A stretch of DNA of 64,000 nt from Candidatus Caldarchaeum subterraneum. Its GTDB lineage: Archaea; Thermoproteota; Nitrososphaeria_A; Caldarchaeales; Caldarchaeaceae. The position numbers were made by a program, and so were the translations under genes. Shown here piece by piece: positions 14,035 to 56,635 of the stretch. The notes under the pieces are model-generated. The model did not search any database, had not been told where the DNA came from, and worked only from the letters and a program-made list of their open reading frames with translations. Within the stretch, counting starts at the first letter, position 1. Every line of letters starts with the position of its first letter. The stretch is taken from positions 142,192 to 206,191 of the forward strand of contig CALHAG010000002.1 of the NCBI GenBank assembly GCA_937934305.1, given 5' to 3'.

Positions 14035-14050
14035 GGTTTCTCATCCCCGT

Positions 14051-35710: not shown

Positions 35711-35732
35711 CTAAGCATCACACCCATCGTGG

Positions 35733-36587: not shown

Positions 36588-36720
36588 TAGGATGTACCAA
36601 ACCATACATGTTCGGAAAAGGTAATACTTACCAAGTAATTTTGGTCAGGGAGAAATCGGGCCTAATTCCTCAAAATTTTGGCTTTCTACGGAGGCGGGTT
36701 GACCATATATGGTCAACGCC
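36588..36720. repeat. Inverted-orientation copy of the composite palindrome-containing repeat unit
   Basis: GTAATACTTACCAAGTAATTTTGGTCAGG...GGCCTAATTC...CAAAATTTTGGCTTTC...TTGACCATATATGGTCAA, with a perfect palindrome at 36699-36716. It lies at the 3' end of the 15-gene array. Confidence 0.65.
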
Positions 36721-37522
36721 GGCTTCGGCTAGACTTGTTCTCGGGTGGAGAGCGGCGTGCTATGATGGTTAGCACGGTCATAGCCTGCTGTAGGTCGCCT
36801 CCATGCGCGTATCTAGCTACTCTCAGCACGTCTCTGGCGCTTCTGAAACCGTTGGCCCACATGGTTCTGGCTAGTGTTTTAGCCGACTGTTCGTCGAAGC
36901 CATGTTCCACGAATATTCGGAGAGCCACTTTCTCGAAGTCTCCAGCGTCGTATTGAGGCAGGTACAGTATCATGAAGCGGTCAAGGACTTCTGGAGGAAT
37001 CTTTTCGAGGTAGTTGGCGGTGGCCATGACCGTGGCGAGGCATGTTTTCTCGGCCTCGATGTTTCCTTTTAGTACAGTTATCCGCCCTGTCTGCATCAGG
37101 CTGAGCAATACGTCGTAGTCCGTCTTCCCCATCTTGTCCAGCTCATCTATCAGGACCAGCTCTATTTGGTCCCCGGCCATCAGCAACTTGTTCCGTAGAC
37201 CGGCTTTGCTTACTTGGCTGCCCAGCAGGAAGAGCCGCTTCTCCTGAGGCACCTCTTTCTCAACCGATAACAGCAGCATTGTTTTCGCTATTCCCGGCGG
37301 GCCGGCGAGCAGGACATGTATCCTCTGGTCTATGTTTGTCAGAATCGTCCGCCTCATCATCTCCATGCTCCGCTCCAGCACTATCTTCACGTCGTCAAAG
37401 CCCTCAACCATCTTGAAGTTCTGCCCCTCATAGCGTAGAGGAACCTGTGAAATAGCTGGAGCGGGGGAAGGTTTCTCCCTCTCCGGCTTCCCTCTCCTGA
37501 GAAAATCAAAGAGCGGCGGCAT
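36713..37522 (-). CDS. MoxR-like AAA+ ATPase (small)
   Basis: Walker A LLAGPPGIAKTMLL fits the GxPGxAKT MoxR-type P-loop. Walker B is ELVLIDELDKM. 269 aa. Confidence 0.5.
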   Translation of the reverse strand: MPPLFDFLRRGKPEREKPSPAPAISQVPLRYEGQNFKMVEGFDDVKIVLERSMEMMRRTILTNIDQRIHVLLAGPPGIAKTMLLLSVEKEVPQEKRLFLLGSQVSKAGLRNKLLMAGDQIELVLIDELDKMGKTDYDVLLSLMQTGRITVLKGNIEAEKTCLATVMATANYLEKIPPEVLDRFMILYLPQYDAGDFEKVALRIFVEHGFDEQSAKTLARTMWANGFRSARDVLRVARYAHGGDLQQAMTVLTIIARRSPPENKSSRSRR

Positions 37523-38138
37523 TCACCACCTCCTCCACCATCACAACCTCTTTCCCGACTAAGGTATCCATGGATTTCTCCAGATATATGGTCAGGTATC
37601 TGCCGCTTCTGCTGGTTCTGAGGACGACCGCCGGGTCAAGAGTTTGACCAAAATGCCCCCTTAGCTGCCACGATGTGATAATCACTGTCGCGCCCTGCCC
37701 GGTCAGAGAGCGGATAAAGTGGTTGAAGACGGCGTGTTTCTCACGCGCGTAGCCCGGGTTCTCGAGGTATAGCAGGTGGAACGGGGCTGAGGCGCTGTCT
37801 ACAACCACGAGGACTAGAGGAGGGTTTAGGTAACGGAGCCTGCTGTTTATCTCTGCGAGCTTCTCTAGGAACGGGTTAACCTCGTGGCACTCGTAGTAAG
37901 CGACGCCCTTTGGAGGCGATGTAATCTTCGACTCCGTGTCGAGGTAGAAGACCACGCCTCCCCGAGAAGAAAACAGCTTAGAAGATGCTATGCAGATGCT
38001 TGTCTTGAGGCTCGCTGGAGGGCCGTAGACCACATTAACCCTTCCTACCGGCCAGCCCCCCGCGAGCAGGCTGTCTAGCCTCTCGACCCCCGTCGGTATC
38101 TTCATCTGAGGCAACCACAACAGCCTCTTCTTCGACAA
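37506..38138 (-). CDS. KaiC/RadB-like RecA-superfamily ATPase (single domain)
   Basis: RVNVVYGPPASLKTSICIASS is a Walker A. VVFYLDTES is the KaiC-like motif. 210 aa. Confidence 0.55.
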   Translation of the reverse strand: MSKKRLLWLPQMKIPTGVERLDSLLAGGWPVGRVNVVYGPPASLKTSICIASSKLFSSRGGVVFYLDTESKITSPPKGVAYYECHEVNPFLEKLAEINSRLRYLNPPLVLVVVDSASAPFHLLYLENPGYAREKHAVFNHFIRSLTGQGATVIITSWQLRGHFGQTLDPAVVLRTSRSGRYLTIYLEKSMDTLVGKEVVMVEEVVNAAAL

Positions 38139-39006
38139 GCCTCCGCCTCATCTCGTTCTCAAGCCGCGTAGGCTTAGCCCCCTGCGCCGGGACTAGGCCT
38201 CTATCGGTTAGGCGCATGTACAACCCTATGTTGTCAGGCTTTTCTCGATGAGCCTCGATGACGAAAAACCTGAGGTCGCCCTGTAGCCTCCAAATCCTCG
38301 CTATTACTTTAGCTATGTATCCAAGAAAACGGCCGCCGATGTAGTCTTCACCATAGGTCCCCAACACGATGTCCAAATCTCTGACGTCTATGAGGCCTTT
38401 TTTCGCAGCCTTCTCAAGCTCCCTGATTTGATGCTGCTCGAAAGCCTTCTTAGCCTTGGACGCGCTCCATGAGGTGAAAAGAACCGTGGCTCCGCTGTTT
38501 TTTGCATAGTTTAGCAAGGTCTTGGTCTGAAGCTCCAGCTTACCCATAAGCTCTCTGGCCACAGACCCCACATGCTCCGTTGGCGCGTTCATGACACGCT
38601 GGTGATAATGCCAAGCTATGGAATCGATAACAAACATTCCAACCTCCGCTTTTTTCACAAGCCCTCCCCATTCATCCATGACGATTTTATGCTGTTCAGA
38701 CAGCTCCCCGGCTTGATAGATAAGCACATTCGAGATGAGCCTGTGTATCAGCTCCTGCTTCACACCCATCGCCGCCGCTAGATTGTATAGCCTAAGCTGG
38801 CTGACGCCGCCTGACTCCGTATCCAGGTAAAGGATTTGCCGGCCTTCTTCAGCAACCTTCAACGCGGCCTGCATAGCGAAAGTGGTTTTACCGGCTTTCT
38901 GGCTGCCGTATATCAGGGCTAAGCCCGCCCGCGGCAGGCCATACATGAGCTCGTCCAGCTCAGGCACGCCGGTTGTCCTGTAGAAGCGGCGAATCATCTC
39001 CTCCAT
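38035..39006 (-). CDS. KaiC-like RecA-superfamily ATPase
   Basis: LALIYGSQKAGKTTFAMQAAL is a Walker A. QILYLDTESGG is present. Walker B-like is GMFVIDSIA. 323 aa. Confidence 0.6.
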   Translation of the reverse strand: MEEMIRRFYRTTGVPELDELMYGLPRAGLALIYGSQKAGKTTFAMQAALKVAEEGRQILYLDTESGGVSQLRLYNLAAAMGVKQELIHRLISNVLIYQAGELSEQHKIVMDEWGGLVKKAEVGMFVIDSIAWHYHQRVMNAPTEHVGSVARELMGKLELQTKTLLNYAKNSGATVLFTSWSASKAKKAFEQHQIRELEKAAKKGLIDVRDLDIVLGTYGEDYIGGRFLGYIAKVIARIWRLQGDLRFFVIEAHREKPDNIGLYMRLTDRGLVPAQGAKPTRLENEMRRRLVEEEAVVVASDEDTDGGREARQPARGGLAGRKG

Positions 39007-39007
39007 G

Positions 39008-40138
39008 TCATTCTTCCTCTGGTTTCCAAATGTCCTTGTTCGGGAAACCGCATTCCAAACATGCTACAGGAGCCCCGTGCGCCAACCCTCTCAGAACAGA
39101 GGAGCAGCTTGGGCATAGAAGCACCCGAACATTGTCAAGCGGCGGGTTGAGGTTTACGACTGGATAATAGGAGGGGAAGGGTGAGGTGTCCGCGGATATT
39201 AGCTTCATGAAGGCTCTCGGGTTTCTCGGGATGCTCAGGATTGCTTCAGGGCGTTTGAGCACTTCATGCAGATACGGTCCCTGCTTCACGGCTTTGAAGA
39301 GGTGCGGCCGCCAATCCAGCATCTTTACAGCTTCTTCGGGGCTCGGCAGCGGCTCACGCCGCTCCTCCACAGGCTGAGAACCGGTGTCTTGTTTCTTGTC
39401 TTCAGGCTTTGCTTTTAGACGCTTCACCGCTTGGAAAAACTTCGTGGCAGTTGTTTTCTTGACTCCGTTGACGAGGTGTTTTTCCTTAGACCGCCTATCC
39501 ACCACATGTATGCCCTCTTCTTCAAGCAGCTTTCTGGCGTCGAATCTCTCGACCATTGAGCGAACAGTTTCGAAAGGCAGGTTAAGCGATTCTGCCACTT
39601 TTCTCCATGAGCCGAGGAATTTATGGAGAGCGACTAGGCCTTCATAGAACTCCTCCTCGCTTAGAGGCAGTGTCTTGCCTTCGTCGCTTAATGCCCAGAG
39701 AAGGGCCTCCTTATCGCTTAAATCGAAAACATAGCAAGGTATCTCCTGTATCCCTGCTATGCGTGCGGCTTCGACACGGCGGGACCCTCTGACCACTCCA
39801 TATGTCCCATCTGGAAGCGGCCTGACGGCCACTGCTGAGACGAAGCCATGTTTAACTATGTCTTCCACCAACGGTTTCAGGTCACCAAGATTCTCTCTCG
39901 GGTTCATTGGGTCTTTCACTAGCTTGCTCAACGGCAGGGTTACGAGCTTAGGCTCGATTACCTGACCCATCATATTATTGCTCTTCGGAGGTATATTAAA
40001 GGAGTCTGGGCCATTTTCGGTCATCTCTCTCTCACCACCTCCAGTACACGGGCAGCCGTGGATTGACCAATTATTTTCGCCAAATGTTCGGTGGATATCC
40101 GGCGGAGGTCTTCCACCCTCCTGATACCAGCGTTCCAT
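39008..40138 (-). CDS. ParB-like nuclease-domain protein with a C-terminal zinc ribbon
   Basis: VRPLPDGTYGVVRGSRRVEAARIAG matches the ParB/Srx GxRRxxAA box. C-terminal CPSCSSVL...CLECGFPN. The likely true start is the ATG at 40024, which would give an ATGA overlap with the hel308 stop. Confidence 0.55.
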   Translation of the reverse strand: MERWYQEGGRPPPDIHRTFGENNWSIHGCPCTGGGEREMTENGPDSFNIPPKSNNMMGQVIEPKLVTLPLSKLVKDPMNPRENLGDLKPLVEDIVKHGFVSAVAVRPLPDGTYGVVRGSRRVEAARIAGIQEIPCYVFDLSDKEALLWALSDEGKTLPLSEEEFYEGLVALHKFLGSWRKVAESLNLPFETVRSMVERFDARKLLEEEGIHVVDRRSKEKHLVNGVKKTTATKFFQAVKRLKAKPEDKKQDTGSQPVEERREPLPSPEEAVKMLDWRPHLFKAVKQGPYLHEVLKRPEAILSIPRNPRAFMKLISADTSPFPSYYPVVNLNPPLDNVRVLLCPSCSSVLRGLAHGAPVACLECGFPNKDIWKPEEE

Positions 40139-42063
40139 AGAGCCCTGGCCCTGACCCTTCCTATGCCCGGCAGCGAGCAGAGCGGGAGCAGCTCCTCTCT
40201 CACGCCATGCTTGATTCTTTCAGACAATACTAGGAAGGTTTTAGATGCCTGTCGCCGGCCGACCATGGCCGCAAGCTCCGAAGCAGCCTGAGCTATCCAA
40301 GAACCTGATTCGCTGAGGACATATATGTCCCCCGGAGCTGCTCCGAACCGGCTCTCTATAGTGGACTCCCCCATCTCCTCCACCCATGCCTTGAGGACAC
40401 TGGCTTTGGCGATGGCTGGGCCGTCGAAGTCTCCGTAGTCCCTGAACCAGTCGAGGGCAGGCTGTATATGGGATAGAAGCTCGATGTCGGGTGTGGAGCA
40501 GATGGTCAGGAGCGCAACGTCGTCAGCCTTCGGACCTGCTTTCTCAACATCCTCAAGCCTCGAAAGGATTATACGGGCCGACAGTGGGTCGATGTAGAGG
40601 TCCGCAACCCTCTTACCCAGCCTCGTCGCCCTCCATCCTCCGCCATCATGTTTTATGAACTTGGCCGCTTCGAGGTAAGACAATGCGCTGTCAACCTTTT
40701 CCATCAAGCCGCTATCCTGCCGCGACGCCAAGGTTTTCTCGAAGAAAGCCACAAGCTCATTATGGTCTGAGAAACCGCTTGATACAAGCCCCAGCGTATG
40801 AAACCTGAGCCTCCTCTGGTCGGAGAGCCTGCTTACAATCGGCTCAAGCTGCCCATGAACATATCTCCTCATCATCTCATTCCTCTGCCTAGAATTCTTC
40901 GCAATAATCACAGCCAGCCCCTCTTTATCGAAGCCAGGCCTCCCAGCTCGGCCGCATAACTGCTTATACTCCATCACGGACATATCTTCCCCACCTCGTT
41001 TGACATCGGGTATTATGACGGCTCGCGCAGGCAGGTTGACTCCGGCGGCCAGCGTAGGCGTCGCGACTATTGCCTTCAGCAACCCCGCACGGAAAGCATC
41101 CTCAACAGCTTTCCGCTGATGCGGATACAGCCCGGCGTGATGGAAGGCTGTGCCACGTCTAATGTATCTGGCTAGACGCGTGGAGCAGTCTCCCCCATCG
41201 TATACTGTTTCAGCCAAAGCCGAGAGCTGAGCAGCCTCTCCCCCAACTACTCTAAGGGCCGAGGCGAGGTCGTCAGCAATTCCTTCAGCGGCCCTTCTAC
41301 TAGAAGCGAATACCAGCACCTGCCCACCGATTGATACAATGTTTAGGACAAGGTTCTTCACCGGGTCGCTGCTCAGCCTAGGCAGCCTCTCGGATGAGCC
41401 GTCGGAGAAGAATAGCTCGTCCCTGTCTTGCTGATACACGGCTTCTCGGAGGGGCACGGGCCTCCAGCTCGAGGAAACTATGTCGGCGCCAGTATACTCA
41501 GCCAGGTCCTCGACGTTTCTAATGGTCGCGCTCAGCAAAAGAAACTGGGCATTCGGAAGCTCGGTTAACAAACGTGTTATAAGCACTTCAAGGGTTGAGC
41601 CTCTTTCCTCAGCCGCCAACATGTGTACCTCGTCTACCACAACAAGTGAAGTGGATTTGACCCATGAGGCGCTGTGCCTCAGCATGCTGTCCATCTTCTC
41701 ATTTGTCGAGACCACGATGTCGTAGCCTCTAAGCCACTCCTCAGGCTGGTCATAGTCCCTGCTGACGGCGGCCACCTTGTATCTATCGCCGAAAAGCTCC
41801 TCGAAAAACTGCTTCTTCTCACTGGTTATGGCTCTCAGAGGAGAAAGGTAAACCACTCTGCCTCCCCTATCCAAATGCTTGGACGCAGCCAAAGCAGCTA
41901 GAAGAGTTTTGCCGCTCGCCGTCGGAGTGGCCACCAGCAGGTTGCGGCCGTCCAGCAACCCTTTGGAAACGGCTTCAGCCTGAGGCGGGTACAGAGCCTC
42001 GACACCTATGCCCCGCAGCTTATCCACCAAGTAAGAAGGTATGGGGAGCTGGTTCACCATCAC
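40021..42063 (-). CDS. hel308: Hel308/Hjm-family Ski2-like DNA helicase
   Basis: Motif I is LLVATPTASGKTL. Motif II is VVDEVHMLAAEERGSTLEVLITRL. Motif III is LLSATIRNVEDLAEY. Motif VI is QLCGRAGRPGFDKEG. C-terminal HhH LPGIGRVRARALWNAGIRRVEDL. N-terminal ...RGIGVEALYPPQAEA is Hel308-typical. Confidence 0.85.
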   Translation of the reverse strand: MMVNQLPIPSYLVDKLRGIGVEALYPPQAEAVSKGLLDGRNLLVATPTASGKTLLAALAASKHLDRGGRVVYLSPLRAITSEKKQFFEELFGDRYKVAAVSRDYDQPEEWLRGYDIVVSTNEKMDSMLRHSASWVKSTSLVVVDEVHMLAAEERGSTLEVLITRLLTELPNAQFLLLSATIRNVEDLAEYTGADIVSSSWRPVPLREAVYQQDRDELFFSDGSSERLPRLSSDPVKNLVLNIVSIGGQVLVFASSRRAAEGIADDLASALRVVGGEAAQLSALAETVYDGGDCSTRLARYIRRGTAFHHAGLYPHQRKAVEDAFRAGLLKAIVATPTLAAGVNLPARAVIIPDVKRGGEDMSVMEYKQLCGRAGRPGFDKEGLAVIIAKNSRQRNEMMRRYVHGQLEPIVSRLSDQRRLRFHTLGLVSSGFSDHNELVAFFEKTLASRQDSGLMEKVDSALSYLEAAKFIKHDGGGWRATRLGKRVADLYIDPLSARIILSRLEDVEKAGPKADDVALLTICSTPDIELLSHIQPALDWFRDYGDFDGPAIAKASVLKAWVEEMGESTIESRFGAAPGDIYVLSESGSWIAQAASELAAMVGRRQASKTFLVLSERIKHGVREELLPLCSLPGIGRVRARALWNAGIRRVEDLRRISTEHLAKIIGQSTAARVLEVVRER

Positions 42064-42674
42064 TCGGCGACCACCTCAGGCCTTGACCAACCCAGCTCCG
42101 GAAGCTCCATGACCTCAACCATCCTAGCGTCTACGCTTTCGCCGGGCAGGAAGGAGAGGACCTTGGCGTAGAGGTTGCCCAGCATATCTCTAGAAAGGGA
42201 CACCACCTCTCCGACGTAGTAGGTTCTGCCGCCGCATTCAAGCTTTTTACCAGCGACGCTACATGGCCCAACCAAGGATTCATGGCTGTATGGATCCCTC
42301 CAGAAGACAACGGGCCTACCGGTTTCCCCACATCCAAGGCATGAATAGTCTTTCTGCAGAGATGTTTCTAGAACGGCTCCGCACTCTCTACATTTCATGG
42401 CCCAGAGACAGGGTAGGCGCCGGAAGATGCTGGGTTTTCCGCGGAAATGCTTAACCAGGTCATATTCCCTGCTGTTGATGAGAAGCCATAAAGAGCCTTC
42501 CCTGTCGATGTAGACGCGTTCCAGCTCGGGTAACGGAAGCCCGAGAGCGGGCTGGATACCGTGGGACGCCAGCTTCTCCCTGATTTTCTTATTGTGGACA
42601 ATAAAGTCCACGTACCGGTCTCTGTATATCCATGACGTGAAAGGCCCCACCATGAACCTGCCCAGCCTAGCCAT
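42060..42674 (-). CDS. Zinc-ribbon hypothetical protein, coupled to hel308
   Basis: CRECGAVL...CLGCGETG. Its stop overlaps the hel308 start. Confidence 0.35.
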   Translation of the reverse strand: MARLGRFMVGPFTSWIYRDRYVDFIVHNKKIREKLASHGIQPALGLPLPELERVYIDREGSLWLLINSREYDLVKHFRGKPSIFRRLPCLWAMKCRECGAVLETSLQKDYSCLGCGETGRPVVFWRDPYSHESLVGPCSVAGKKLECGGRTYYVGEVVSLSRDMLGNLYAKVLSFLPGESVDARMVEVMELPELGWSRPEVVAE

Positions 42675-44901
42675 CGCCGCTCACCTCTTCCGACAAATTC
42701 TGGTCAGCAAGCGTCTCCGAGAAGACCGCCACACGCTCGGCCAAGCTGATTAACAGCTCCGCCGCATCAGCCATCCTCTTCCTATCCTCCTCGGAGACCG
42801 GCTGGCCGTCCGCAACCTGTTTAGAGAGCCTCTTCGCCTCAATGTTTGCAGCATATAGTTTCCTAGCCTCTTCCTCAGATATCTTGAGAACACCTCTTTC
42901 AGCCGCTTTGGCTGCGAGGTCGGGTAAATGCCCCTTCTCCTCTCCGAGAAGCTTCTTGAGAGAGGTGACGGCGGCCTTGTACGCTATGCCAACAGCGGCT
43001 AGGCTATCGCCTCTGAGCAGGTGTTTCCTAGCCCTCGCCACAAGCGTGTCAACATCATGTATCTCGCGGGGTTTGCGCTGCTGCGTGTAGGAGCCGAGGC
43101 CCGTCTGCAAAGCGATGGCGGGCTGCGCCGAGCTCCCGCCAGCCTCGTCACTTGTTTTCTCCTCCCTCGACTTCGACTCCCAGTCCTTGAGGGCCTGCTC
43201 GCCCAGAGCCGTTAAACCCAGCACGCCGCCGGGGTCCACCATGAGGTATTGTTTCTCGAGAAGCATTTTCAAAGCCTTCCCAGCCTCGGGAAACAATTGG
43301 GAGACCGAGTCCGAGGTGGGTGACTGCAGCCTCTTCACCGTTCGAAGCAGGCTGTAGCAATGCTCGGCATAGTCTGCGAAATCGGCGTAGAGAAGCGTGT
43401 CGCGATAGGCTCCGAGCAGCTCCTCCCTTAGAAGCGATATTTTTCTCTCGGCCTCGGCTTCTAGAGCCTTCAGGTCGCATACAGGGGACTGGAGAAGCTC
43501 TCCCTCGAAAAGGTAGCTGCGGCCATCCGGTGTAGCCCGTGTATAGACCAGGGCGTATCCAACCGGTATAGACGAGGGGTTGACCTCGACACCTATTCTC
43601 TCCGACAGCTCCCTTCTAACATGGGACGGGCCTCTCGTGACAATATATGTCCCAGCCAAGTCGAGAAGCTCGGGAGCAAGCAACCCGGTGCTGCTGGATA
43701 TCACGAATCCTCCACAGCCCCTAAGCCTCTCCACCGTCTTCAGAGTCCTCAGCCACACATGCCTAGCATCGTATGGCAGAAGCTGCAGCTCCGGTAGGCC
43801 CAGCTCAGCGCTGTCAAAAACTATGACACAGCCTTGGAAGAGGCGGGGAGCATCGTAGAGCAGGTACATGCCTATGAAGAGCTGGCTGGCTTGGCTGAGG
43901 TTTCGAAGGTCTATCACCAACTGCTGCCAATCGCCTGCGAAGAGCTTGTCAGGCTCCGGATAGCCCTCTCCAAAGAACTGCGTCAACATGCCGAGTGCGT
44001 CTTTCAGCCTAGCCGAGCCCGTGGGCCCATACTCGGCGACAAGCTTGTCTACGTCGTCGGGCAACACCCTTGAGCCTCTAAACTTCTCCAGAAACCGTAT
44101 CACCATCCCAGCCTCAGCCGTGTCAAGCCCAGCGGCCACGGCAAGGGGCACAGCGATGTTCTCGGCCCAGCGCCTCAGACCGAACTTGTCGGAGGAAGAG
44201 GGCTTGAGAACATTGATGGAGGTTTTTCCAAGCGGTACATAATGTGTCTTGGCATGTGATGCAGCCATGTATGGTGAGCCTATCACCACCACTCTCCGGC
44301 CAAGTTTCAGCATCGCGTCGACGAGAACCCGGGCGGCGGGTATCGAGGCTTCGCCGAACACTATTACGCCGCTGTCGAACGCCTGTCTGTATATACAGCC
44401 TCTCGAGCGGCCAAACCATCCACCGGGCCTAGACACTATGCATACATCAGCTTTCTTGGGGGAATCCTGTATAACCTGGCTACCCTGCTTAGACACCACA
44501 GGGGATGGTTTAGAGCCTTTCCCCACCGCTATGCTGCGTGTGGCTGTGACAGGGGCGCTTGTTTTTGTAAAGCTTTTCACAGCCAATAAGCCTGCCAAGC
44601 CGCCTATGAGGAAGGCTAGCAACATGCCTGCAGCGGGTCCAGCGATTAGAGAGGCTCCTGTTACAAGCAAAGCCGCCAGCGACAGCGCGGCGAACGGCGC
44701 AATGAATCTCCTGAAAAAGCCTGTAAATGTTCTGACGCCGGAGAAGATAACCCATCCCCCGGGCAGCAATATGGTGACGACAACCAGAAGCAGTAGGGCG
44801 ACTATGCCTATTAGCGCGAGCTGTGCGAGAATCGGCTGGACAACCATGAAGCCTAGGCCGCCAAGTATGAAGGCGAGGATATCTCTAGAATTCATGCCCA
44901 A
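42667..44901 (-). CDS. Membrane-anchored P-loop NTPase-like protein with a degenerate Walker A (putative inactive HerA/VirD4-like paralog)
   Basis: Three N-terminal TM helices. A P-loop-like VVVIGSPYMAASHAKT lacks the GK[ST] lysine context. Walker B-like is CVIVFDSAELG. 744 aa. Confidence 0.4.
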   Translation of the reverse strand: MGMNSRDILAFILGGLGFMVVQPILAQLALIGIVALLLLVVVTILLPGGWVIFSGVRTFTGFFRRFIAPFAALSLAALLVTGASLIAGPAAGMLLAFLIGGLAGLLAVKSFTKTSAPVTATRSIAVGKGSKPSPVVSKQGSQVIQDSPKKADVCIVSRPGGWFGRSRGCIYRQAFDSGVIVFGEASIPAARVLVDAMLKLGRRVVVIGSPYMAASHAKTHYVPLGKTSINVLKPSSSDKFGLRRWAENIAVPLAVAAGLDTAEAGMVIRFLEKFRGSRVLPDDVDKLVAEYGPTGSARLKDALGMLTQFFGEGYPEPDKLFAGDWQQLVIDLRNLSQASQLFIGMYLLYDAPRLFQGCVIVFDSAELGLPELQLLPYDARHVWLRTLKTVERLRGCGGFVISSSTGLLAPELLDLAGTYIVTRGPSHVRRELSERIGVEVNPSSIPVGYALVYTRATPDGRSYLFEGELLQSPVCDLKALEAEAERKISLLREELLGAYRDTLLYADFADYAEHCYSLLRTVKRLQSPTSDSVSQLFPEAGKALKMLLEKQYLMVDPGGVLGLTALGEQALKDWESKSREEKTSDEAGGSSAQPAIALQTGLGSYTQQRKPREIHDVDTLVARARKHLLRGDSLAAVGIAYKAAVTSLKKLLGEEKGHLPDLAAKAAERGVLKISEEEARKLYAANIEAKRLSKQVADGQPVSEEDRKRMADAAELLISLAERVAVFSETLADQNLSEEVSGDG

Positions 44902-45232
44902 TCCTCCTCGGCTCCCTCCTCTTTCTCCGCCTAGCTAGGGCAAGCATGCTGGCAAACAGGGTGGCTAAGGGCAAAGTGACCACGAGCATCGAAGGGTTGA
45001 CAACAGCCGTAGCCATCGCCGTGAAGACGATGATGTAGAAAACAGACTTGGCCGATAGAATCCCTTTGCCAACCTCGTCAGCACCCTGCTCTTCTCCATG
45101 TTTCCTCCGTGGAGGAGCTCTTGTCTGGGCTTCATGATAATCAGGCTCATATGCCGGCGGCTGCGATGCCATGCTCTCGTAAATCCTCTGGTTGATAATG
45201 TATTCATCCAAATAGCTGTCATCAGATGACAT
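44885..45232 (-). CDS. Small membrane protein, hypothetical
   Basis: 115 aa with one central TM (VFYIIVFTAMATAVV). Overlaps both neighbours by 11-17 nt. Confidence 0.3.
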   Translation of the reverse strand: MSSDDSYLDEYIINQRIYESMASQPPAYEPDYHEAQTRAPPRRKHGEEQGADEVGKGILSAKSVFYIIVFTAMATAVVNPSMLVVTLPLATLFASMLALARRRKRREPRRIGHEF

Positions 45233-47387
45233 ATTGCTTCATCTCCTCGAAATGCTTCAGCAATAGAATTCCGGGAATAGTCTTCTTATACCTCGTTCCA
45301 TCCATCCAAACTAGGCCATACTTGATGTAGTCATGAATGGAGGACTTGTCTTTCCAATTGCGGCAGAACCTGACAGCCACCGATGTGGGCAGTTTTCTAA
45401 GAATCTCGGCAGCCTCCTTGTTGATGGTTCTCTTTATCGCTAACTCTTTAGCGGCTATAACGTTGGACAGAAGCTCAAACTCCTCCGGGTCAAATTCTTG
45501 TGTATCGGTTTTTCTAGTCTCCTGCTTCTCTTCTACAGGTTCTTCTCCCGTGTTCGTTGCCTTGACTAAAGTCCTCTCCTTTGTCTCCTTTTCCTGTTTC
45601 TTCTTTTCAACATGTTTTCCGAGACAGCGACCATCGCTGGTCAGCACTCTGCCGCATTCGCTGCATGGCTTCGGCAGCCCGGGAGCCTTGTCTCCGCCAA
45701 GTTTCTCCCTCCGCATTTTGAAGATATAGCCATCCACGATGATTCTGGCCGGGTCTTGCCGGGACAGTGTCCTTATCCTCGCCGGCGTGACGAACCTGAT
45801 GTATGCCTCGCCTATCCCCAGCTCTGTTATCACGCGTCTGATGCTCTCGGGCGAGGTTTGGGAAAGAACCCACACATCCTCTGGAGAGGAGGTGTTGAAC
45901 ACGACCCACCGGTAGCAGGACTGTCTAATTCCGTCGGCTATGTCCGACAGCCTCTGCGTGACAAGAATCAACGCGACGGCGTAGCTTCTAGCGGTTCTGG
46001 CTATGTCTTCGAGCTTGCTACGGCTCCCCGAGTCCCTGCCGCCTCTGAGCTGGATAGGCTTGGTGACTAGGTACGCCTCGTCTATGACGACCACGACAGG
46101 CTTTTCTCTAGTGAAAGCCAGCGGCCCACGTTTCAGCATCATCTTGGCAAGCTTCCTAAGCAGGAACTCTAGGACTATTGCTCTGGTTTTCTCGTTCACA
46201 TCAGCCATGTTGAGCACCACGAGAGAGGGGCCATCCGCCGCAAACAATGGGCTATAGAGGTCGGAGACGCCGTAGGCATCTGTTTTAAAGACCGTCTTCA
46301 GGTCATACATCTTGTCGTAGATGCCTTCTATGGCGTCTTTGGTCTGCGGCCCATACTTCAGCTTCCCCTCCATTATTTCCCTCTCCACCTTCTCCAGTTT
46401 ATCCATCAGGTTTTCATACGTCAACTCGATGTTGGCGTGGCGCAGCTCGGCGTAGGCCACTCTGATGAAGTGAGCCTGCTTAGAGCCAACCTCCTCCAGA
46501 ACAGATATGCTGTCCATGAGGTCCTCAACCATCTGAGGCTCCGTCTCCCCCTCAAGGGCCTTGAACGGGTCTATGCCCGTGTGTGAGACCATGTAAATAG
46601 CCGCTCTCCCGTCGTCCACGTATCCGAGCTTGTAAAACGCTTCGGTGAAGTCGCCTTTGACATCGAAGAGCAAAACCTTGTAGCTCCCCATTAGCTGGGT
46701 GACTAGGCTAAACACTGTAGTTGTCTTGCCCGCCCCGCTCGCGCCAGCTATTATCATGTGCGGGTTGAACTCCCGCTCGCTCACGACCGGGGAATACCTC
46801 AGCTCTATGTTTCCGGGAATGGTGCGTACGAGGATATGGGTCTTGAGCTGAGCATCTTCATTGGTTTCGCGGTAGGGCTGCTCAACCATTCTCACGCTTT
46901 TGGAGACGGTGCCGAGGACGGCTGAGGACTCCTTGTTACCGGTTTCGACGTCTCTTCTAACCCTTCTGATTGTTGATGCCTGCTCAGCCACCGCGACTAT
47001 CGACGCTATGGTCGTCACCATCGGTATCGAGGGGAGGTTGGCTAGGACGATTGTGAAGGCTTTATGATATTCGAGCTGGGCGAAAACGGCTGCGATAACT
47101 AGGTCCAGCACAAGGCTTAGTATGAAGTAGTAGGCGCCCAAGCTCTTGGCGGCATACGCTATCGGAGCCGCGATGGAGGCGGGTCCCGAGCCTATCGGCC
47201 CCCAAGCCATCAAAGCCAGCATGATGGCGAAAAACACTCTGCCGACAATGAGTGCGCGAAGGCTCTTGACGGGCTTTATCTCAGGCGCGTTGCCTTCCCT
47301 AACCATGTAAAGGAATATGAAGGCTAGGATGTAGTTTAGGGCAAGGGCCGATGCTCCTAGGAAAGTTATCTCCATGTCACCATACAC
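45222..47387 (-). CDS. Membrane-anchored HerA/FtsK/VirD4-like P-loop ATPase with a C-terminal zinc ribbon
   Basis: N-terminal ~150-aa polytopic region. Walker A is MIIAGASGAGKTTTVFSL. Walker B is PVVVVIDEAYLV. C-terminal CSECGRVLTSDGRC. Confidence 0.6.
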   Translation of the reverse strand: MYGDMEITFLGASALALNYILAFIFLYMVREGNAPEIKPVKSLRALIVGRVFFAIMLALMAWGPIGSGPASIAAPIAYAAKSLGAYYFILSLVLDLVIAAVFAQLEYHKAFTIVLANLPSIPMVTTIASIVAVAEQASTIRRVRRDVETGNKESSAVLGTVSKSVRMVEQPYRETNEDAQLKTHILVRTIPGNIELRYSPVVSEREFNPHMIIAGASGAGKTTTVFSLVTQLMGSYKVLLFDVKGDFTEAFYKLGYVDDGRAAIYMVSHTGIDPFKALEGETEPQMVEDLMDSISVLEEVGSKQAHFIRVAYAELRHANIELTYENLMDKLEKVEREIMEGKLKYGPQTKDAIEGIYDKMYDLKTVFKTDAYGVSDLYSPLFAADGPSLVVLNMADVNEKTRAIVLEFLLRKLAKMMLKRGPLAFTREKPVVVVIDEAYLVTKPIQLRGGRDSGSRSKLEDIARTARSYAVALILVTQRLSDIADGIRQSCYRWVVFNTSSPEDVWVLSQTSPESIRRVITELGIGEAYIRFVTPARIRTLSRQDPARIIVDGYIFKMRREKLGGDKAPGLPKPCSECGRVLTSDGRCLGKHVEKKKQEKETKERTLVKATNTGEEPVEEKQETRKTDTQEFDPEEFELLSNVIAAKELAIKRTINKEAAEILRKLPTSVAVRFCRNWKDKSSIHDYIKYGLVWMDGTRYKKTIPGILLLKHFEEMKQYVI

Positions 47388-47901
47388 CTCTTCTCAAGAC
47401 ATACACCATGCTGCTGACCATTGCGCTGAAGCTGGTCACGGCGACGAAGGTCCACAGCCTGCTCTCCACGTTGAAAACCCGCTCCACAACGTCTCCATGG
47501 CTGGTCTCCATCCTCACTATGAACGTGGCCCTCGGGTAGGAGAATATGCGCCAAGAGGTTTCAGCGACACCTGATTCATCTGTGGAAACCTCTATAGATT
47601 CTCTAAACTCGGCATACTGTATCCTCAGCCTAGTGTTCGCAACGGGTCTGCAGACCGATGCATCCATTATTGTTGTCCCGTTGTCGAGAACCTTCCAGCA
47701 CCTCCCCCCGCTTCCAACCAGGTCTTCCACAACCAGTATCCGGAAAGTATATGGCCATAGGAAGTGAGCCTCCTGGGTTCTGTCGAAGAAGATTACGACC
47801 TTGGTGGGGTTGAAGCCGTCGGTGTTTTCATCGCCTATAGCCAGTGGCGCGGCCAGAGCCAGCAGCGCCAGAGACAATAGAAGAAGGTTAAGCGGTTTCA
47901 T
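47377..47901 (-). CDS. Secreted hypothetical protein
   Basis: Signal MKPLNLLLLSLALLALAAPLAIG. 174 aa. Embedded between the two ATPase genes. Confidence 0.35.
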   Translation of the reverse strand: MKPLNLLLLSLALLALAAPLAIGDENTDGFNPTKVVIFFDRTQEAHFLWPYTFRILVVEDLVGSGGRCWKVLDNGTTIMDASVCRPVANTRLRIQYAEFRESIEVSTDESGVAETSWRIFSYPRATFIVRMETSHGDVVERVFNVESRLWTFVAVTSFSAMVSSMVYVLRRGVW

Positions 47902-50687: not shown

Positions 50688-51089
50688 TCACCTCCTCATC
50701 TTCACAACCAGCGCCACGGCGAAGGTGGACACGCCCACGATTAACGCGGCGAGCAGATGACCACTTATAGCCAGAACACCTGTGAACACGCCGCCGATTA
50801 TCAGGTATTTGCGCAGGCCAGCGTCGTAGGACACTTTCCTAGACGAGGGGCGCCTGCCACCTTTCTTGAGCAGGTCGACGGGCCTGCCGTTTTCATCCCT
50901 GATGTATGGGTCGTCGGGGTCTCTCGGCGTAGCCTCCTCCTCTCTTCGCCAGCCTCTCCTCAAGCCAAACTCATCTTCCTCACTCATTTTTCTCCTCACC
51001 ATTTTTCTTGTTTGAATTCTCCCCAGCCTGCCTCCATTCGGGAGGCATCTGGGACTCGGTATCGCCCACATCATTCTCCTTTTTTCCAA
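50688..51089 (-). CDS. Small C-terminally TM-anchored protein (VirB3-like position immediately upstream of the VirB4-like gene)
   Basis: C-terminal TM YLIIGGVFTGVLAISGHLLAALIVGVSTFAVALVV. The likely real start is the internal MSEEDEF, because the annotated N-terminus overlaps the upstream gene. Confidence 0.3.
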   Translation of the reverse strand: MEKRRMMWAIPSPRCLPNGGRLGRIQTRKMVRRKMSEEDEFGLRRGWRREEEATPRDPDDPYIRDENGRPVDLLKKGGRRPSSRKVSYDAGLRKYLIIGGVFTGVLAISGHLLAALIVGVSTFAVALVVKMRR

Positions 51090-55077: not shown

Positions 55078-55811
55078 ATCTTCATCAAAGTGTTGTTTTC
55101 AGGGTTGAGGAGCCACGCAACCAAGTCGAAGACGTTCTGCGGATTGGGTAGAACAAAGTCAGCCAGACTACATGCGTTTGCCTCTCCGGCTCCGCATGCG
55201 AGCAACCCTATAGCGGGTATGTAGGGCCCTGCGGCCACGAAAGCTATTGAAGCCGCTATAAACCATGCGCCTATTCCCCTGAGCTTTCCTCCGGGGACAG
55301 CCAGCAGGGCCACGCCAAGGGGAGCGAGGACCACTGCTAGCGAGCCGAAGACCGTTAAAAACACCATCAAGGTGAAGCTTGTTATAAGCGTCACGGAGAG
55401 GGCTAGACCCGGCAGAGAGGCGATTACGCTAAAGATGTTGGCTATCGCCGGCCCCACTATAGGTATCAGAGCGGTCCCCATTCCTATCCCCGTAATGATG
55501 GCCAGCAGCGAGAAGGCCTTATTGCCTACAGTCAAATACAGCGTTGGAAGGTCAGAACACTCAATCCTCGGAGCGGCTATAGAAGATGAAACAATATTGA
55601 TTAAACCATTGATAGAATTGGCTACGCCTAGGACGGCTACGACGCCGGCAGCCACGAGGCTGTATGAGATTAGGTGACCGCCCCATGAGCTGCCGCTTCC
55701 GCCCGGCAAAGGGGTTCTATGCAGGGCTAAGCCAACCGCATAGCCCAGGCTGACAAGGGCCCAGGCGACGGCGGCGTATTCACCCAACCCCGCGTAGGTA
55801 CAGCTAATCAT
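54969..55811 (-). CDS. Polytopic membrane protein (CedA/VirB6-like candidate)
   Basis: 280 aa with ~7 hydrophobic helices. Sits between the pilin candidate and the giant membrane protein. Confidence 0.4.
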   Translation of the reverse strand: MISCTYAGLGEYAAVAWALVSLGYAVGLALHRTPLPGGSGSSWGGHLISYSLVAAGVVAVLGVANSINGLINIVSSSIAAPRIECSDLPTLYLTVGNKAFSLLAIITGIGMGTALIPIVGPAIANIFSVIASLPGLALSVTLITSFTLMVFLTVFGSLAVVLAPLGVALLAVPGGKLRGIGAWFIAASIAFVAAGPYIPAIGLLACGAGEANACSLADFVLPNPQNVFDLVAWLLNPENNTLMKMWRFALGSLAGWGIVTAAAAALSKGIGGVAASLGFG

Positions 55812-55848
55812 CTAAACCGCCTCAAAAAAAGGAGGGGGGATGTGGTGT

Positions 55849-56481: not shown

Positions 56482-56635
56482 TAGGGTTCTTCATGATGTC
56501 AACTAGGCTATTTAAAGGTAAATGGTTAATGCCATGTAAAAAATCGGCTTATTTCGCCATAACTCGCCAATCCAGAAGAAATGGTGGAAGAGACGGAAAA
56601 AGCCCAGTTTTAGTGGATTGACGTAATGCAAGCTC

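What the first reader, a model, noticed from the sequence alone, without database searches (positions are those of the whole stretch)
36713..42674. Hel308 helicase, ParB-like nuclease, two KaiC/RadB-like ATPases and a MoxR-like ATPase apparently in one transcription unit with the DNA-transfer genes
From 56256 down to 36713 every adjacent gene pair is separated by 4 nt or less, or overlaps by 4-17 nt, including ATGA overlaps at hel308/204-aa and ParB-like/hel308. This suggests a ~19.5-kb, 15-gene co-transcribed unit.

Hel308 is normally regarded as a housekeeping fork-repair helicase. Its tight coupling to a putative DNA-import apparatus, together with a ParB-fold nuclease and RecA-superfamily ATPases, suggests a dedicated module that processes and recombines incoming DNA.

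Such a transfer-plus-processing unit has not, to my knowledge, been described for Ced/Ted systems.
Basis: inference. Interest (0 to 1): 0.7.

Follow-up and report, generated by a model that had tools for sequence, protein, structure and literature searches.

The report
DNA-transfer operon with its own Hel308
A hot-spring archaeon (Caldarchaeum) carries a 15-gene operon in which a conjugation-like DNA-transfer machine is fused to a private second copy of the Hel308 repair helicase plus RecA-like and MCM-like motors, giving the first concrete candidates for how such archaeal machines handle the DNA they move.

Summary
Fifteen minus-strand genes (56256-36713) are packed with overlaps or gaps of 4 nt or less at 12 of 14 junctions. 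The exceptions are a conserved 37-nt gap with an oligo-T tract after the pilin gene, and a 71-nt KaiC1/KaiC2 overlap.

The upstream half is a distant Ced/Ted/type-IV-secretion-like apparatus in a Caldarchaeales (Aigarchaeota) genome.

The Hel308 is not the housekeeping enzyme. It belongs to a separate clade, 44% identical to the MCM-linked housekeeping Hel308, which two MAGs of the same organism also encode. Every sampled member of that clade (9 locus types, down to 43% identity) sits at the same position behind VirB4-like, VirD4-like and a ~700-aa pseudo-ATPase gene, followed by RadB/KaiC-like ATPases. ParB and the last ATPase are variable.

The "MoxR-like" ATPase is an MCM/RuvB-like AAA+ core. 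The "ParB nuclease" looks like a ParB/KorB-type DNA-binding protein.

Best reading: a dedicated module that processes transferred DNA for recombination. Transfer direction, and whether this is a host system or an integrative conjugative element (ICE), remain open. I found no published description. Verdict: a new variant of a known kind.

The parts
55849..56256 (-). Putative VirB2/CedA1/TedC-like pilin (135 aa). It has a signal-peptide-like N-terminus followed by two hydrophobic helices.
   Evidence: Topology from the translation. The single-sequence AF2 model gives three helices but low confidence. No sequence or fold match was found. It is the first gene of the unit and is followed by a conserved oligo-T tract.
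54969..55811 (-). CedA/CedE/VirB6-like polytopic membrane protein (280 aa).
   Evidence: NCBIfam hits to CedA (E 8.5e-8) and CedE (4.3e-7), both far below the curated cut-offs.
50980..54969 (-). Large protein (~1329 aa) with an N-terminal multi-TM region, no known domain.
   Evidence: No Pfam or NCBIfam hit. Conserved at this position in L004, L005, L007, L097, L102-L105.
50688..50987 (-). Small protein (~99 aa) with a C-terminal TM helix, in a VirB3-like position.
   Evidence: Translation and junctions. Conserved position in relatives.
47888..50683 (-). VirB4/CedB-like ATPase (931 aa).
   Evidence: Pfam DUF87 and AAA_10. NCBIfam CedB is the best hit (E 1.5e-19), followed by VirB4-like families.
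47377..47901 (-). Secreted or membrane-anchored protein of 174 aa, function unknown.
   Evidence: Conserved position in all relatives.
45222..47375 (-). VirD4/CedD/TraG-like coupling-type ATPase (717 aa). It has N-terminal TM helices, a HerA/FtsK P-loop and a C-terminal zinc ribbon.
   Evidence: Pfam DUF87, HerA_C, TrwB_AAD_bind, FtsK_SpoIIIE. NCBIfam CedB 1.6e-10, VirB4, CedD 6.5e-5.
44885..45232 (-). Small protein (115 aa) with a C-terminal TM helix.
   Evidence: Conserved position in relatives.
42667..44895 (-). Membrane-anchored protein of 742 aa, probably an inactivated paralogue of the VirD4-like ATPase (Walker A lost).
   Evidence: hhalign of A3 against A4 gives probability 62% and E 7.5e-5 over the P-loop region. 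No Pfam hit. Present directly or nearly directly upstream of hel308 in all nine locus types.
42060..42674 (-). 204-aa beta-rich protein with a CxxC...CxxC zinc ribbon, translationally coupled to hel308. Function unknown and restricted to Caldarchaeum.
40021..42060 (-). Transfer-system-specific Hel308 paralogue (679 aa) with all helicase motifs intact.
   Evidence: Pfam. NCBIfam Hel308 models score 523-656 bits, below the equivalog cut-offs of 887-1216. Invariant motifs. Separate clade from the housekeeping Hel308. Locus contexts.
39008..40024 (-). ParB/Spo0J/KorB-type protein (338 aa). It combines a ParB_N domain (DPMNPR and GSRRxEAAR motifs), an HTH and a C-terminal zinc ribbon. Variable component.
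   Evidence: Pfam ParB_N 5e-12. NCBIfam parB_part, Noc, PRTRC ParB. Motif conservation. Absent from clades 2 and 3.
38035..39006 (-). RadB/KaiC-like RecA-superfamily ATPase 1 (323 aa) with intact Walker A and B motifs.
   Evidence: NCBIfam RadB 2.7e-26 (below cut-off). Pfam AAA_25 and KaiC.
37506..38105 (-). RadB/KaiC-like ATPase 2 (199 aa). Its Walker A is degenerate (GPPASLKT). It overlaps gene 1 by 71 nt.
   Evidence: NCBIfam RadB N-terminus 3.3e-10. Alignment. Junctions.
36713..37522 (-). Stand-alone MCM/RuvB-like AAA+ core ('mini-MCM', 269 aa). It has Walker B IDELDKM and an arginine finger DRF, and lacks the OB/zinc N-domain.
   Evidence: Pfam MCM 6.7e-12. The best PDB hits are MCM chains, then RuvB. 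It hits host MCM genes at 26-35% identity. Alignment.
55824..55830 (-). Oligo-T tract (T7) in the 37-nt gap after the pilin gene. Candidate attenuator or partial terminator.
   Evidence: It is the only run of 6 or more T on the coding strand of the unit. Conserved in L102-L104.
56289..56932 (.). Promoter/operator region. It holds three copies of a 50-70-nt element (TATA-like box, TTTTTGGTGGCAAA, then 3-4 TGAACG repeats at 11-nt spacing) at 56289-56340 (inverted), 56411-56481 and 56862-56932.
   Evidence: 7 pattern matches against 0.06 expected. Repeat families D1 and I1-I5. Conserved in L102 and L103.
56636..56742 (+). Copy of a dispersed ~105-nt repeat unit that begins with the palindrome TTGACAATATTTGGTCAA, upstream of the operon.
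36616..36720 (-). Inverted copy of the same ~105-nt unit. Its palindrome GTTGACCATATATGGTCAAC overlaps the stop codon of the last gene and can form an RNA hairpin.
   Evidence: The same unit follows the last gene in L001, L003, L005, L007 and L008.

Best explanation
The region is the cytoplasmic DNA-handling half of one conserved operon. That operon encodes a distant Ced/Ted-like, type-IV-secretion-related DNA-transfer machine in a Caldarchaeales archaeon.

Shown:
- The operon carries its own Hel308 paralogue, distinct from the MCM-linked housekeeping Hel308 that the same organism also has.
- This paralogue and one or two RadB/KaiC-like RecA-family ATPases are constant parts of this family of transfer loci.
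- They always lie directly behind the VirB4-like, VirD4-like and pseudo-ATPase genes. The start of hel308 overlaps the preceding gene.

Inferred mechanism:
- Single-stranded DNA leaving the membrane ATPases on the cytoplasmic side is taken by the 3'-5' Hel308 translocase. Hel308/HELQ enzymes strip RPA and anneal strands.
- The RadB-like paralogues then hand the DNA to RadA.
- The MCM/RuvB-like AAA+ ring extends the heteroduplex by branch migration.
- The result would be transfer-coupled homologous recombination in the recipient. This is functionally parallel to ComFA, RadA/Sms and ComM in bacterial transformation, and to the HELQ, RAD51-paralogue and MCM8-9 network in eukaryotes.
- The ParB-like protein, a variable component, most likely acts like KorB or ParB. 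It would bind the TTGAC...GTCAA palindromes that bracket the operon and regulate or mark the locus, rather than cut DNA.
For: Operon structure:
- Junctions are tight.
- No TATA-like box lies within 120 nt of any internal start, while TATA-like boxes sit upstream of the pilin gene.
- Only one run of 6 or more T occurs, and it lies after the pilin gene.

Ced/T4SS affinity.

Synteny:
- Gene order is conserved in L004-L008, where Hel308 is 67-78% identical.
- It is also conserved in clade 2 (L009/L010, L013/L014, 47-48% identity) and clade 3 (L097-L101, 43-44% identity).
- A decayed locus, L105, keeps hel308 remnants at the same place.

Paralogy:
- The NJ tree splits transfer-linked Hel308 from housekeeping Hel308.
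- The housekeeping copy lies in a GINS-MCM-Hel308 context, and MCM lies upstream of hel308 in about 30 other archaeal loci.
- None of the 80 housekeeping loci has VirB4, VirD4, KaiC, ParB, u204 or u744 homologues.
- Both copies occur in the same NCBI MAG submissions. The accessions are MEM0461197 and MEM0461041 in one, and MEM0477394 and MEM0477196 in the other. Both clusters also report the same longest-contig length of 156,617 bp. The two proteins are 44% identical.

Catalytic motifs are intact.

Established knowledge:
- Hel308/HELQ strips RPA and anneals DNA. HELQ binds the RAD51 paralogues BCDX2 and interplays with MCM8-9 (PMC13623763).
- The DNA-processing partners of Ced and Ted are unknown, and archaea have no known relaxase (PMC9905601, PMC11823120).

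ParB and palindromes:
- ParB motifs.
- Palindromes flank the operon and differ between species whose ParB has diverged. ParB-less loci lack them.
Against: - There are no expression data. T5 tracts inside the genes occur at the chance level (8 observed against 6.5 expected), so internal termination is not excluded.
- In L004, L007 and L008 hel308 and parB are 95-150 nt apart.
- The direction of transfer is unknown. A VirB4 plus VirD4 pair is also the hallmark of exporting conjugative elements.
- One MAG carries two diverged copies of the whole system.
- The reference Ca. C. subterraneum genome shows up only in the housekeeping cluster. This fits an accessory or mobile island.
- ParB and the mini-MCM are missing from some clades, so they cannot be essential to a common mechanism.
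- No physical interaction has been tested.
- All Ced-family hits lie far below the curated cut-offs.
Confidence: 0.55

Rival explanations
1. The locus is, or derives from, an integrative conjugative element or integrated plasmid. In this reading Hel308, ParB, the RadB-like ATPases and the mini-MCM form the donor-side module, a relaxase-free functional substitute for the relaxosome and/or a replication-partition module. ParB would bind the palindromes or iterons (oriT- or parS-like). Hel308 and/or the MCM-like motor would unwind the DNA. The VirD4-like ATPase would then export it.
For: - A VirB4 plus VirD4 pair with ParB is the signature of Sulfolobus conjugative plasmids and thaumarchaeal ICEs (PMC6563490, PMC5797428).
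- MCM genes are often captured by archaeal mobile elements.
- Two diverged copies of the system occur in each of the MAGs GCA_038858685.1 and GCA_038845135.1.
- The reference C. subterraneum genome is seen only in the housekeeping Hel308 cluster.
- The locus is bracketed by inverted copies of a repeat unit, and an iteron-like array lies upstream of the pilin gene.
- The neighbourhood is rich in defence genes and varies between strains.
- One locus, L105, is decaying.
Against: - The 64-kb window has no integrase, no tRNA gene and no att-like long direct repeat flanking the cluster.
- The GC content of the operon (0.53-0.57) equals that of the flanks.
- There is no replication initiator or primase.
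- There is no match to IMG/VR and no close match to known plasmids.
- The flanking repeat unit also occurs at two unrelated intergenic sites, so it is a dispersed genomic repeat and not an element terminus.
- The same downstream genes (Trx, M50, 415 aa; CarboxypepD_reg protein) recur in relatives. This suggests a fixed chromosomal site.
Confidence: 0.3
2. The six genes form an anti-phage or anti-plasmid defence cassette (a Hachiman-like helicase with ATPases) that merely sits next to the transfer genes within a defence island.
For: - Hel308 hits the HamB helicase models of PADLOC (E 4e-49).
- Defence genes lie nearby: a type IIG restriction-modification gene and GmrSD in the window, PLD nuclease and BrxL-like genes in relatives.
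Against: - The HamB hits cover only the generic SF2 core. Full-length matches are to archaeal Hel308, including domains 4 and 5.
- There is no HamA, and no other PADLOC component matches.
- Translational coupling to the transfer genes, and the fixed position behind them, hold across three clades.
Confidence: 0.05
3. The adjacency is coincidental. An ordinary housekeeping hel308 and ordinary recombination genes happen to lie downstream of transfer genes.
For: Hel308 and RadB are normal archaeal repair genes.
Against: - The housekeeping Hel308 is a different gene in a different, widely conserved context (MCM-Hel308).
- It co-exists with this copy in MAGs of the same organism.
- Linkage to the transfer genes holds down to 43% identity.
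Confidence: 0.02

Closest known systems
Ced system of Sulfolobales/Desulfurococcales (CedA, CedA1/A2, CedB, CedD, CedE)
   Same: - It has a polytopic CedA/VirB6-like protein, a small two-helix pilin-like protein, and two HerA/FtsK-type ATPases (VirB4-like and VirD4-like).
- The best NCBIfam hits of three window proteins are Ced models.
- It is a DNA-transfer machine with no relaxase.
   Different: - All scores lie far below the equivalog cut-offs (32 against 330 bits, 70 against 700 bits).
- The phylum is different (Caldarchaeales, Nitrososphaerota).
- The genes form one 15-gene operon with additional large membrane proteins and a third, inactivated ATPase paralogue.
- It carries Hel308, RadB-like, MCM-like and ParB genes, which are not reported for Ced.
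Ted system of Thermoproteales (TedA, TedB, TedC, TedD with neighbouring ParA, Rad50, HerA-like)
   Same: - The pilin has a Sec-type signal peptide, as TedC does.
- The transfer genes are clustered with DNA-repair-type genes, which has already led others to propose coupling of import and recombination (PMC9905601, PMC11823120).
   Different: - The repair-type partners differ. Here they are a Hel308 paralogue, RadB/KaiC-like ATPases, a mini-MCM and a ParB-type protein, instead of Rad50, ParA/MinD and HerA-like.
- The partners are translationally coupled to the transfer genes.
- The pilin has no detectable sequence similarity to TedC.
Integrative conjugative elements of Nitrososphaerota (Nitrosocaldus ICE-1/ICE-2 and the other thaumarchaeal ICEs described in PMC6563490)
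   Same: - They belong to the same phylum-level lineage.
- They carry a VirB4 plus VirD4 pair, VirB6-like and VirB2-like genes and a ParB-like protein, and lack a relaxase.
   Different: - Those ICEs have integrases, att sites in tRNA genes, a TFIIB-ParB pair, non-syntenic conjugation genes and varied replication modules (primase-S3H, Orc1, UvrD-like SF1, topoisomerase IA).
- No integrase, att site or tRNA is seen here. The order is strictly syntenic. The helicase is a Hel308 paralogue.
Cytoplasmic DNA-processing set of bacterial natural transformation (ComFA, DprA/RecA, RadA/Sms, ComM). This is a functional analogy drawn from general knowledge.
   Same: It combines an SF2 helicase-like translocase at the uptake channel, RecA-family/KaiC-like hexameric ATPases, and an MCM/Mg-chelatase-type AAA+ branch-migration motor, all acting on imported ssDNA.
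   Different: - There is no orthology.
- The membrane machine here is T4SS-like, not ComEC-like.
- The analogy is untested.
KorB of IncP plasmid RK2 / ParB-parS (analogy for the ParB-like gene, drawn from general knowledge)
   Same: It is a ParB_N protein with a GxxRxxA motif and an HTH, encoded within a transfer locus. Palindromic sites sit at operon borders and at other promoters.
   Different: - It has an extra C-terminal zinc ribbon.
- Binding to the palindromes has not been shown.
- The gene is absent from two of the three clades.

Membership tests
Ced/Ted DNA-transfer systems | VirB6-like polytopic membrane protein (CedA/TedA) | tested here: inconclusive
   The 280-aa protein hits NCBIfam CedA (E 8.5e-8, 32 bits against a cut-off of 330) and CedE. 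It is a distant relative, not an equivalog.
Ced/Ted DNA-transfer systems | VirB2-like pilin (CedA1/TedC) | tested here: inconclusive
   The topology fits: a signal peptide followed by two hydrophobic helices. There is no PDB sequence hit to 8DFT/8DFU-type chains, no NCBIfam hit, and the low-confidence model finds nothing with Foldseek.
Ced/Ted DNA-transfer systems | VirB4/HerA-like ATPase (CedB/TedB) plus VirD4-like ATPase (CedD/TedD) | tested here: met
   There are two DUF87/HerA-type ATPases, and the 717-aa one has N-terminal TM helices. CedB is the best NCBIfam hit for the 931-aa protein (1.5e-19). The 717-aa protein hits CedB and CedD. Homology is met at superfamily level only, because the scores lie below the equivalog cut-offs.
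Ced/Ted DNA-transfer systems | Imports chromosomal DNA and is induced by DNA damage | not testable with these tools
   This needs transfer assays or transcriptomics.
Archaeal Hel308/Hjm helicase | SF2 core motifs, ratchet domain 4 and HhH domain 5 along the full length | tested here: met
   Pfam DEAD, Helicase_C, Helicase_dom4_arc and HHH_5. Full-length NCBIfam alignments. Invariant motifs.
Archaeal Hel308/Hjm helicase | Orthology to the housekeeping enzyme (equivalog score, MCM-linked context) | tested here: not met
   It scores 656, 524 and 523 bits against cut-offs of 887, 1216 and 1200. It falls in a separate clade. Its context differs. A second, housekeeping copy exists in MAGs of the same organism.
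Integrative conjugative element | Integrase and flanking att direct repeats (often in a tRNA gene) | tested here: not met
   The 64-kb window has no integrase domain in any ORF scanned, no tRNA gene and no long direct repeat pair bracketing the cluster. The window may not reach the ends of an element.
Integrative conjugative element | VirB4 and VirD4 ATPase pair with mating-pore genes | tested here: met
ParB/Spo0J/KorB CTP-dependent DNA-binding proteins | ParB_N domain with the conserved NPR and GxxRxxA motifs, plus an HTH | tested here: met
   ParB_N 46 bits (cut-off 26). DPMNPR and GSRR(V/L)EAAR are conserved in 5 homologues, and an HTH-like segment follows. CTP binding itself was not tested.
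ParB/Spo0J/KorB CTP-dependent DNA-binding proteins | Cognate palindromic parS/operator sites | tested here: inconclusive
   TTGACCATATATGGTCAA-type palindromes flank the operon and differ between species whose ParB has diverged. ParB-less loci lack them. The sample is only 4 loci against 4, and binding was not tested.
   AAA_3 scores 24.4 bits, below its cut-off of 27. MCM scores 45.4 bits, above its cut-off of 23.3. The top PDB hits are MCM and RuvB.
MCM replicative helicase | N-terminal OB/zinc domain, AAA+ core and winged helix | tested here: not met
   Only the AAA+ core is present, in 269 aa. NCBIfam MCM scores 27 bits against a cut-off of 940. It is MCM-like, not an MCM.
RadB recombination mediator | Equivalog-level match to RadB | tested here: not met
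   TIGR02237 scores 92.8 bits against a cut-off of 172.4 for KaiC1. For KaiC2 only the N-terminus matches. Both are RecA-superfamily proteins and RadB is the nearest named family.

The most novel reading that the evidence does not exclude
The Hel308 paralogue, the RadB-like pair and, where present, the MCM-like motor are the long-sought cytoplasmic DNA-processing machinery of relaxase-less archaeal T4SS-type DNA transfer. They would dock on the VirD4-like and pseudo-ATPase ring and couple translocation of ssDNA directly to RadA-dependent recombination. This would be an archaeal counterpart of ComFA/RadA/ComM and of the HELQ, RAD51-paralogue and MCM8-9 network. Hel308 and the mini-MCM would have been captured together from the host's adjacent mcm-hel308 gene pair. 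The ParB-type protein would use dispersed TTGAC...GTCAA palindromes as KorB/parS-like control or loading sites that also link the nearby type IV pilus operon into one regulon.
Probability: 0.3. Interest if true: 0.85.

Novelty: new variant of a known kind. Interest (0 to 1): 0.62.

Why it matters
How archaeal Ced/Ted-type machines and archaeal conjugative elements prepare and receive DNA is an open question. No relaxase is known, and the published systems list only membrane parts, ATPases, and loosely linked Rad50, ParA and HerA genes.

This locus family gives a defined, conserved and translationally coupled set of candidate DNA-processing enzymes that can be tested biochemically. The tests are protein-protein contacts with the VirD4-like ATPases, RPA stripping and annealing, and branch migration.

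It also shows that Hel308, usually treated as a single-copy fork-repair helicase, has a specialised paralogue lineage devoted to horizontal DNA transfer. It extends Ced/Ted-like systems to Caldarchaeales.

Practical impact is limited because the hosts are uncultured.

Tried and rejected
1. **Genome-collection scan with a Hel308 alignment.** It was useless for finding both copies in one genome, but useful as a negative control and for showing the MCM-hel308 synteny.
2. **Same-genome second copy.** This was settled indirectly through consecutive NCBI protein accessions and an identical longest-contig length, not by reading a whole genome.
4. **Pilin.** There is no PDB sequence hit. The single-sequence AF2 model is poor and Foldseek found nothing meaningful.
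5. **742-aa protein.** There is no Pfam or PDB match. The only signal is a weak hhalign link to the VirD4-like P-loop.
6. **Known mobile elements.** No relatives were found in IMG/VR. Only remote DUF87 or generic helicase hits were found in PLSDB plasmids.
7. **Other negative searches.** Rfam found nothing. PHROGs and Pfam on the upstream ORFs found no integrase or regulator.
8. **Promoter and terminator scan.** The sigma-70 promoter / intrinsic-terminator tool was not used because it does not apply to archaea. T5 tracts are at the chance level, so they are uninformative.
9. **Defence-system reading.** Rejected because the PADLOC hits are generic helicase-core matches.

Full report
**Origin and layout**

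The window comes from a Caldarchaeum (Aigarchaeota/Caldarchaeales, Nitrososphaerota) metagenome-assembled genome. The Hel308 protein is identical to UniRef A0A7J3G6Y4 'Caldiarchaeum subterraneum' and to NCBI MAG proteins labelled Candidatus Caldarchaeum sp.. Fifteen minus-strand ORFs fill 56256-36713.

**Observation check**

With start codons chosen by conservation, the 14 junctions are +37, -1, -8, +4, -14, +1, -11, -11, -8, -1/-4, -4, +1, -71 and -17 nt. A 413-nt gap follows before the next gene.

- The pilin gene is followed by a 37-nt gap. It contains the only run of 6 or more T on the coding strand (T7 at 55824-55830). The C-rich/oligo-T/GAGG arrangement is conserved in three related loci. 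This is the usual look of an attenuator behind a highly expressed pilin gene.
- The hel308/204-aa junction is GTGATG rather than ATGA.
- KaiC2 keeps its conserved N-terminal IPTGVERLD motif only if it starts at 38105. That start overlaps KaiC1 by 71 nt. The overlap is 53-74 nt in relatives.

No TATA-like hexamer lies within 120 nt upstream of any internal start, whereas strong TATA-like boxes lie upstream of the pilin gene. T5 tracts inside the genes occur at the chance rate (8 against 6.5 expected), so they say nothing either way.

**Gene identities in the finding**

- **Hel308.** It has the full archaeal architecture (DEAD, Helicase_C, domain 4, HHH_5) and all motifs. It scores below every NCBIfam Hel308 equivalog cut-off.
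- **ParB-like protein.** It has a ParB_N domain with conserved DPMNPR and GSRRxEAAR motifs, an HTH-like segment and a conserved C-terminal zinc ribbon. Its best named relatives are partition ParB, Noc and PRTRC ParB. Nothing points to a nuclease.
- **The two RecA-superfamily proteins.** Both are closest to RadB. The first has intact Walker motifs. The second has a degenerate Walker A in this clade.
- **The last gene.** It is not MoxR-like. Its only specific Pfam family above cut-off is the MCM P-loop domain. It has an MCM-type Walker B (IDELDKM) and a DRF arginine finger, and its top PDB hits are MCM and then RuvB. It lacks the MCM N-terminal domain.
- **The 204-aa protein.** It is restricted to 7 Caldarchaeum clusters. 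It folds as a beta-rich zinc-ribbon protein with no structural neighbour.

**Upstream genes**

The upstream genes are distantly Ced/T4SS-like. The 280-aa membrane protein hits CedA and CedE. The 931-aa ATPase hits CedB best, followed by VirB4-like families. The 717-aa TM-ATPase hits CedB, VirB4 and CedD. The 742-aa protein is probably an inactivated paralogue of the VirD4-like ATPase.

**Is the Hel308 the housekeeping one? No.**

- Database hits show a break between 63% identity and above, and 49% and below.
- An NJ tree of 117 hits splits them into a housekeeping superclade and a second superclade of three clades.
- Housekeeping members lie in a GINS-MCM-Hel308 context.
- In 80 housekeeping loci from other archaea, about 30 have MCM directly upstream. 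None has homologues of VirB4, VirD4, KaiC, ParB, u204 or u744.
- Every sampled member of the second superclade sits behind VirB4-like, small, VirD4-like, small and ~700-750-aa genes, and is followed by KaiC/RadB-like genes. This covers:
  - clade 1: L004-L008, 67-78% identity;
  - clade 2: L009/L010 and L013/L014, 47-48% identity;
  - clade 3: L097-L101, 43-44% identity.
- A locus found through its VirB4 (L105) has frameshifted remnants of hel308 and of the 700-aa gene at the same place.
- The gene before hel308 overlaps it by 4 nt in 7 of 7 relatives.
- ParB occurs only in clade 1. The mini-MCM occurs in clades 1 and 2, and one clade-3 lineage carries a BrxL-type AAA+ instead.

Both Hel308 copies co-exist. 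In two NCBI MAG submissions the transfer-linked Hel308 (MEM0461197, MEM0477394) and a 711-aa housekeeping Hel308 (MEM0461041, MEM0477196) are 156 and 198 accession numbers apart. The housekeeping protein is in the same 90% cluster as the reference Ca. C. subterraneum protein. Both clusters report the same longest-contig length of 156,617 bp. The two proteins are 44% identical.

**Literature**

- Ted loci are reported with HerA-like/TedD, ParA/MinD and Rad50 neighbours, and a link between import and recombination has been proposed (PMC9905601, PMC11823120).
- Ced gained CedD and CedE in 2025.
- Thaumarchaeal ICEs carry VirB4/VirD4 with ParB+TFIIB and assorted helicases (PMC6563490, PMC5797428).
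- No paper combined Hel308 with VirB4 in this sense, or CedB with Aigarchaeota.
- A 2026 Hel308/HELQ review never uses the words operon or conjugation. That review does state that Hel308/HELQ strips RPA and anneals ssDNA, that HELQ binds the RAD51 paralogue complex, and that it interplays with MCM8-9. This is the same triad of activities encoded here.

**Mechanism**

- *Shown:* this is a conserved operon-like unit with a dedicated Hel308 paralogue and RecA-family ATPases as constant parts.
- *Inferred:* these proteins act on the transferred strand at the cytoplasmic face of the ATPases and feed it into RadA-dependent recombination, with the MCM/RuvB-like ring extending heteroduplexes.
- *Alternative:* the same proteins could prepare ssDNA for export in a donor.

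I favour the recombination/recipient reading (about 0.55) because of three points:

- the RadB-like pair;
- the HELQ/RAD51-paralogue precedent;
- the absence of integrase, att sites, tRNA genes, replication initiator or compositional contrast in 64 kb.

The ICE/donor reading (about 0.3) is kept alive by three observations:

- the VirB4 plus VirD4 pair;
- two diverged copies in one MAG;
- absence of the locus from the reference-genome entries, together with the variable, defence-rich surroundings.

**Cis elements**

- Upstream of the pilin gene are three copies of a 50-70-nt element. Each has a TATA-like box, TTTTTGGTGGCAAA and 3-4 TGAACG repeats at 11-nt spacing. There are 7 matches against 0.06 expected. 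The element is conserved in a relative whose proteins are only about 70% identical.
- A ~105-nt repeat unit starting with the palindrome TTGACCATATATGGTCAA brackets the operon in inverted orientation, at 56636-56742 and 36720-36616. The second copy overlaps the last stop codon.
- The same unit occurs at the head of the type IV pilus operon (14.6 kb) and at 22.3 kb.
- The unit follows the last gene in five related loci, with varying copy number.
- The palindrome differs in species whose ParB has diverged and is missing from ParB-less loci. This is a hint of a KorB/ParB-operator relationship, not more.

**Verdict**

It is a new variant of the Ced/Ted/archaeal-conjugation kind.

Noticed in passing
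window 14645-14853, 22263-22500, 36616-36720 (minus orientation), 56636-56742: A dispersed ~105-nt intergenic repeat unit. It consists of the palindrome GTTGACCATATATGGTCAAC, then CCGAAATTTCGG-GAATTAGG, then TGACCGAAAATACTC...GTATTAC. Copies sit at the head of the type IV pilus operon, at 22.3 kb, and in inverted orientation at both ends of the transfer operon. Copy number differs between strains whose Hel308 proteins are 100% identical (L001 and L003 have two copies after the last gene).
   Followed up: partly
window 56289-56340, 56411-56481, 56862-56932: Three copies of an iteron-like element (TATA-like box, TTTTTGGTGGCAAA, TGAACG repeats every 11 nt), one of them inverted, upstream of the pilin gene. 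The element is conserved in L102 and L103. It could be an operator array or an oriT-like site.
   Followed up: partly
window 1096-14500 (minus strand): A type IV pilus locus lies about 22 kb from the transfer operon. It has a T2SSF-like membrane protein at 1096-2916, a T2SSE-like ATPase with a zinc ribbon at 2916-4754, and several large and small proteins with no hits. The pairing recalls Ups pili with Ced in Sulfolobales, and the locus shares the ~105-nt repeat unit at its promoter side.
   Followed up: partly
L015-L094 (about 30 loci), L011, L012, L095: In many Thermoproteota, Bathyarchaeia, Nitrososphaeria and Methanomethylicia genomes the housekeeping hel308 lies immediately downstream of mcm (GINS-MCM-Hel308 in Caldarchaeales). 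The transfer locus pairs a Hel308 paralogue with an MCM-like AAA+ core, which suggests joint capture of that gene pair.
   Followed up: partly
L009 and L013 (GCA_038858685.1, contigs 12 and 3); L010 and L014 (GCA_038845135.1): One Nitrososphaerota MAG carries two diverged full copies of the related transfer-plus-Hel308 locus. In the two copies the MCM-like and KaiC-like genes are in swapped order.
   Followed up: partly
L105:9425-12400: A related locus (VirB4 52% identical) has its ~700-aa gene split and only frameshifted fragments of hel308. This is either a decaying copy or an assembly error in a Logan contig.
   Followed up: partly
window 33289-36299 (minus strand): A membrane-anchored thioredoxin/ResA-like protein, an M50 intramembrane protease and a 415-aa protein of unknown function recur downstream of the operon in L004, L005 and L007, with variable insertions, but not in L008. 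They may be accessory parts (pilin or surface-protein maturation) or just conserved neighbours.
   Followed up: partly
window 17036-20182 and 28328-29959: A type IIG restriction-modification enzyme (N6_Mtase/Eco57I/MmeI-like, 1048 aa) and a GmrSD-family endonuclease lie in stretches of lower GC (0.45-0.49). Relatives carry PLD nuclease, DEAD helicase, methylase, GmrSD or BrxL genes instead. The region behaves as a variable defence island next to the operon.
   Followed up: no
window 59788-61216 (+): A HerA/DUF87-type P-loop ORF of 154 aa overlaps a 359-aa ORF in another frame. This may be a frameshifted HerA-like ATPase gene. The ORFs that follow (61470-63439) have no hits.
   Followed up: no
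window 57398-57507 and 58618-58835: Two short tandem or direct repeat arrays in the region upstream of the operon. One has 44-nt units containing GGATAGATTATCCAAG. The other has three CTTGCGCATGTGC-containing 40-nt units about 90 nt apart.
   Followed up: no
window 37506-38138 / 38035-39006: There is a conserved long overlap (71 nt here, 53-74 nt in relatives) between the two RadB/KaiC-like genes. The low-complexity C-terminal tail of the first gene is read in another frame as the conserved N-terminus of the second.
   Followed up: yes
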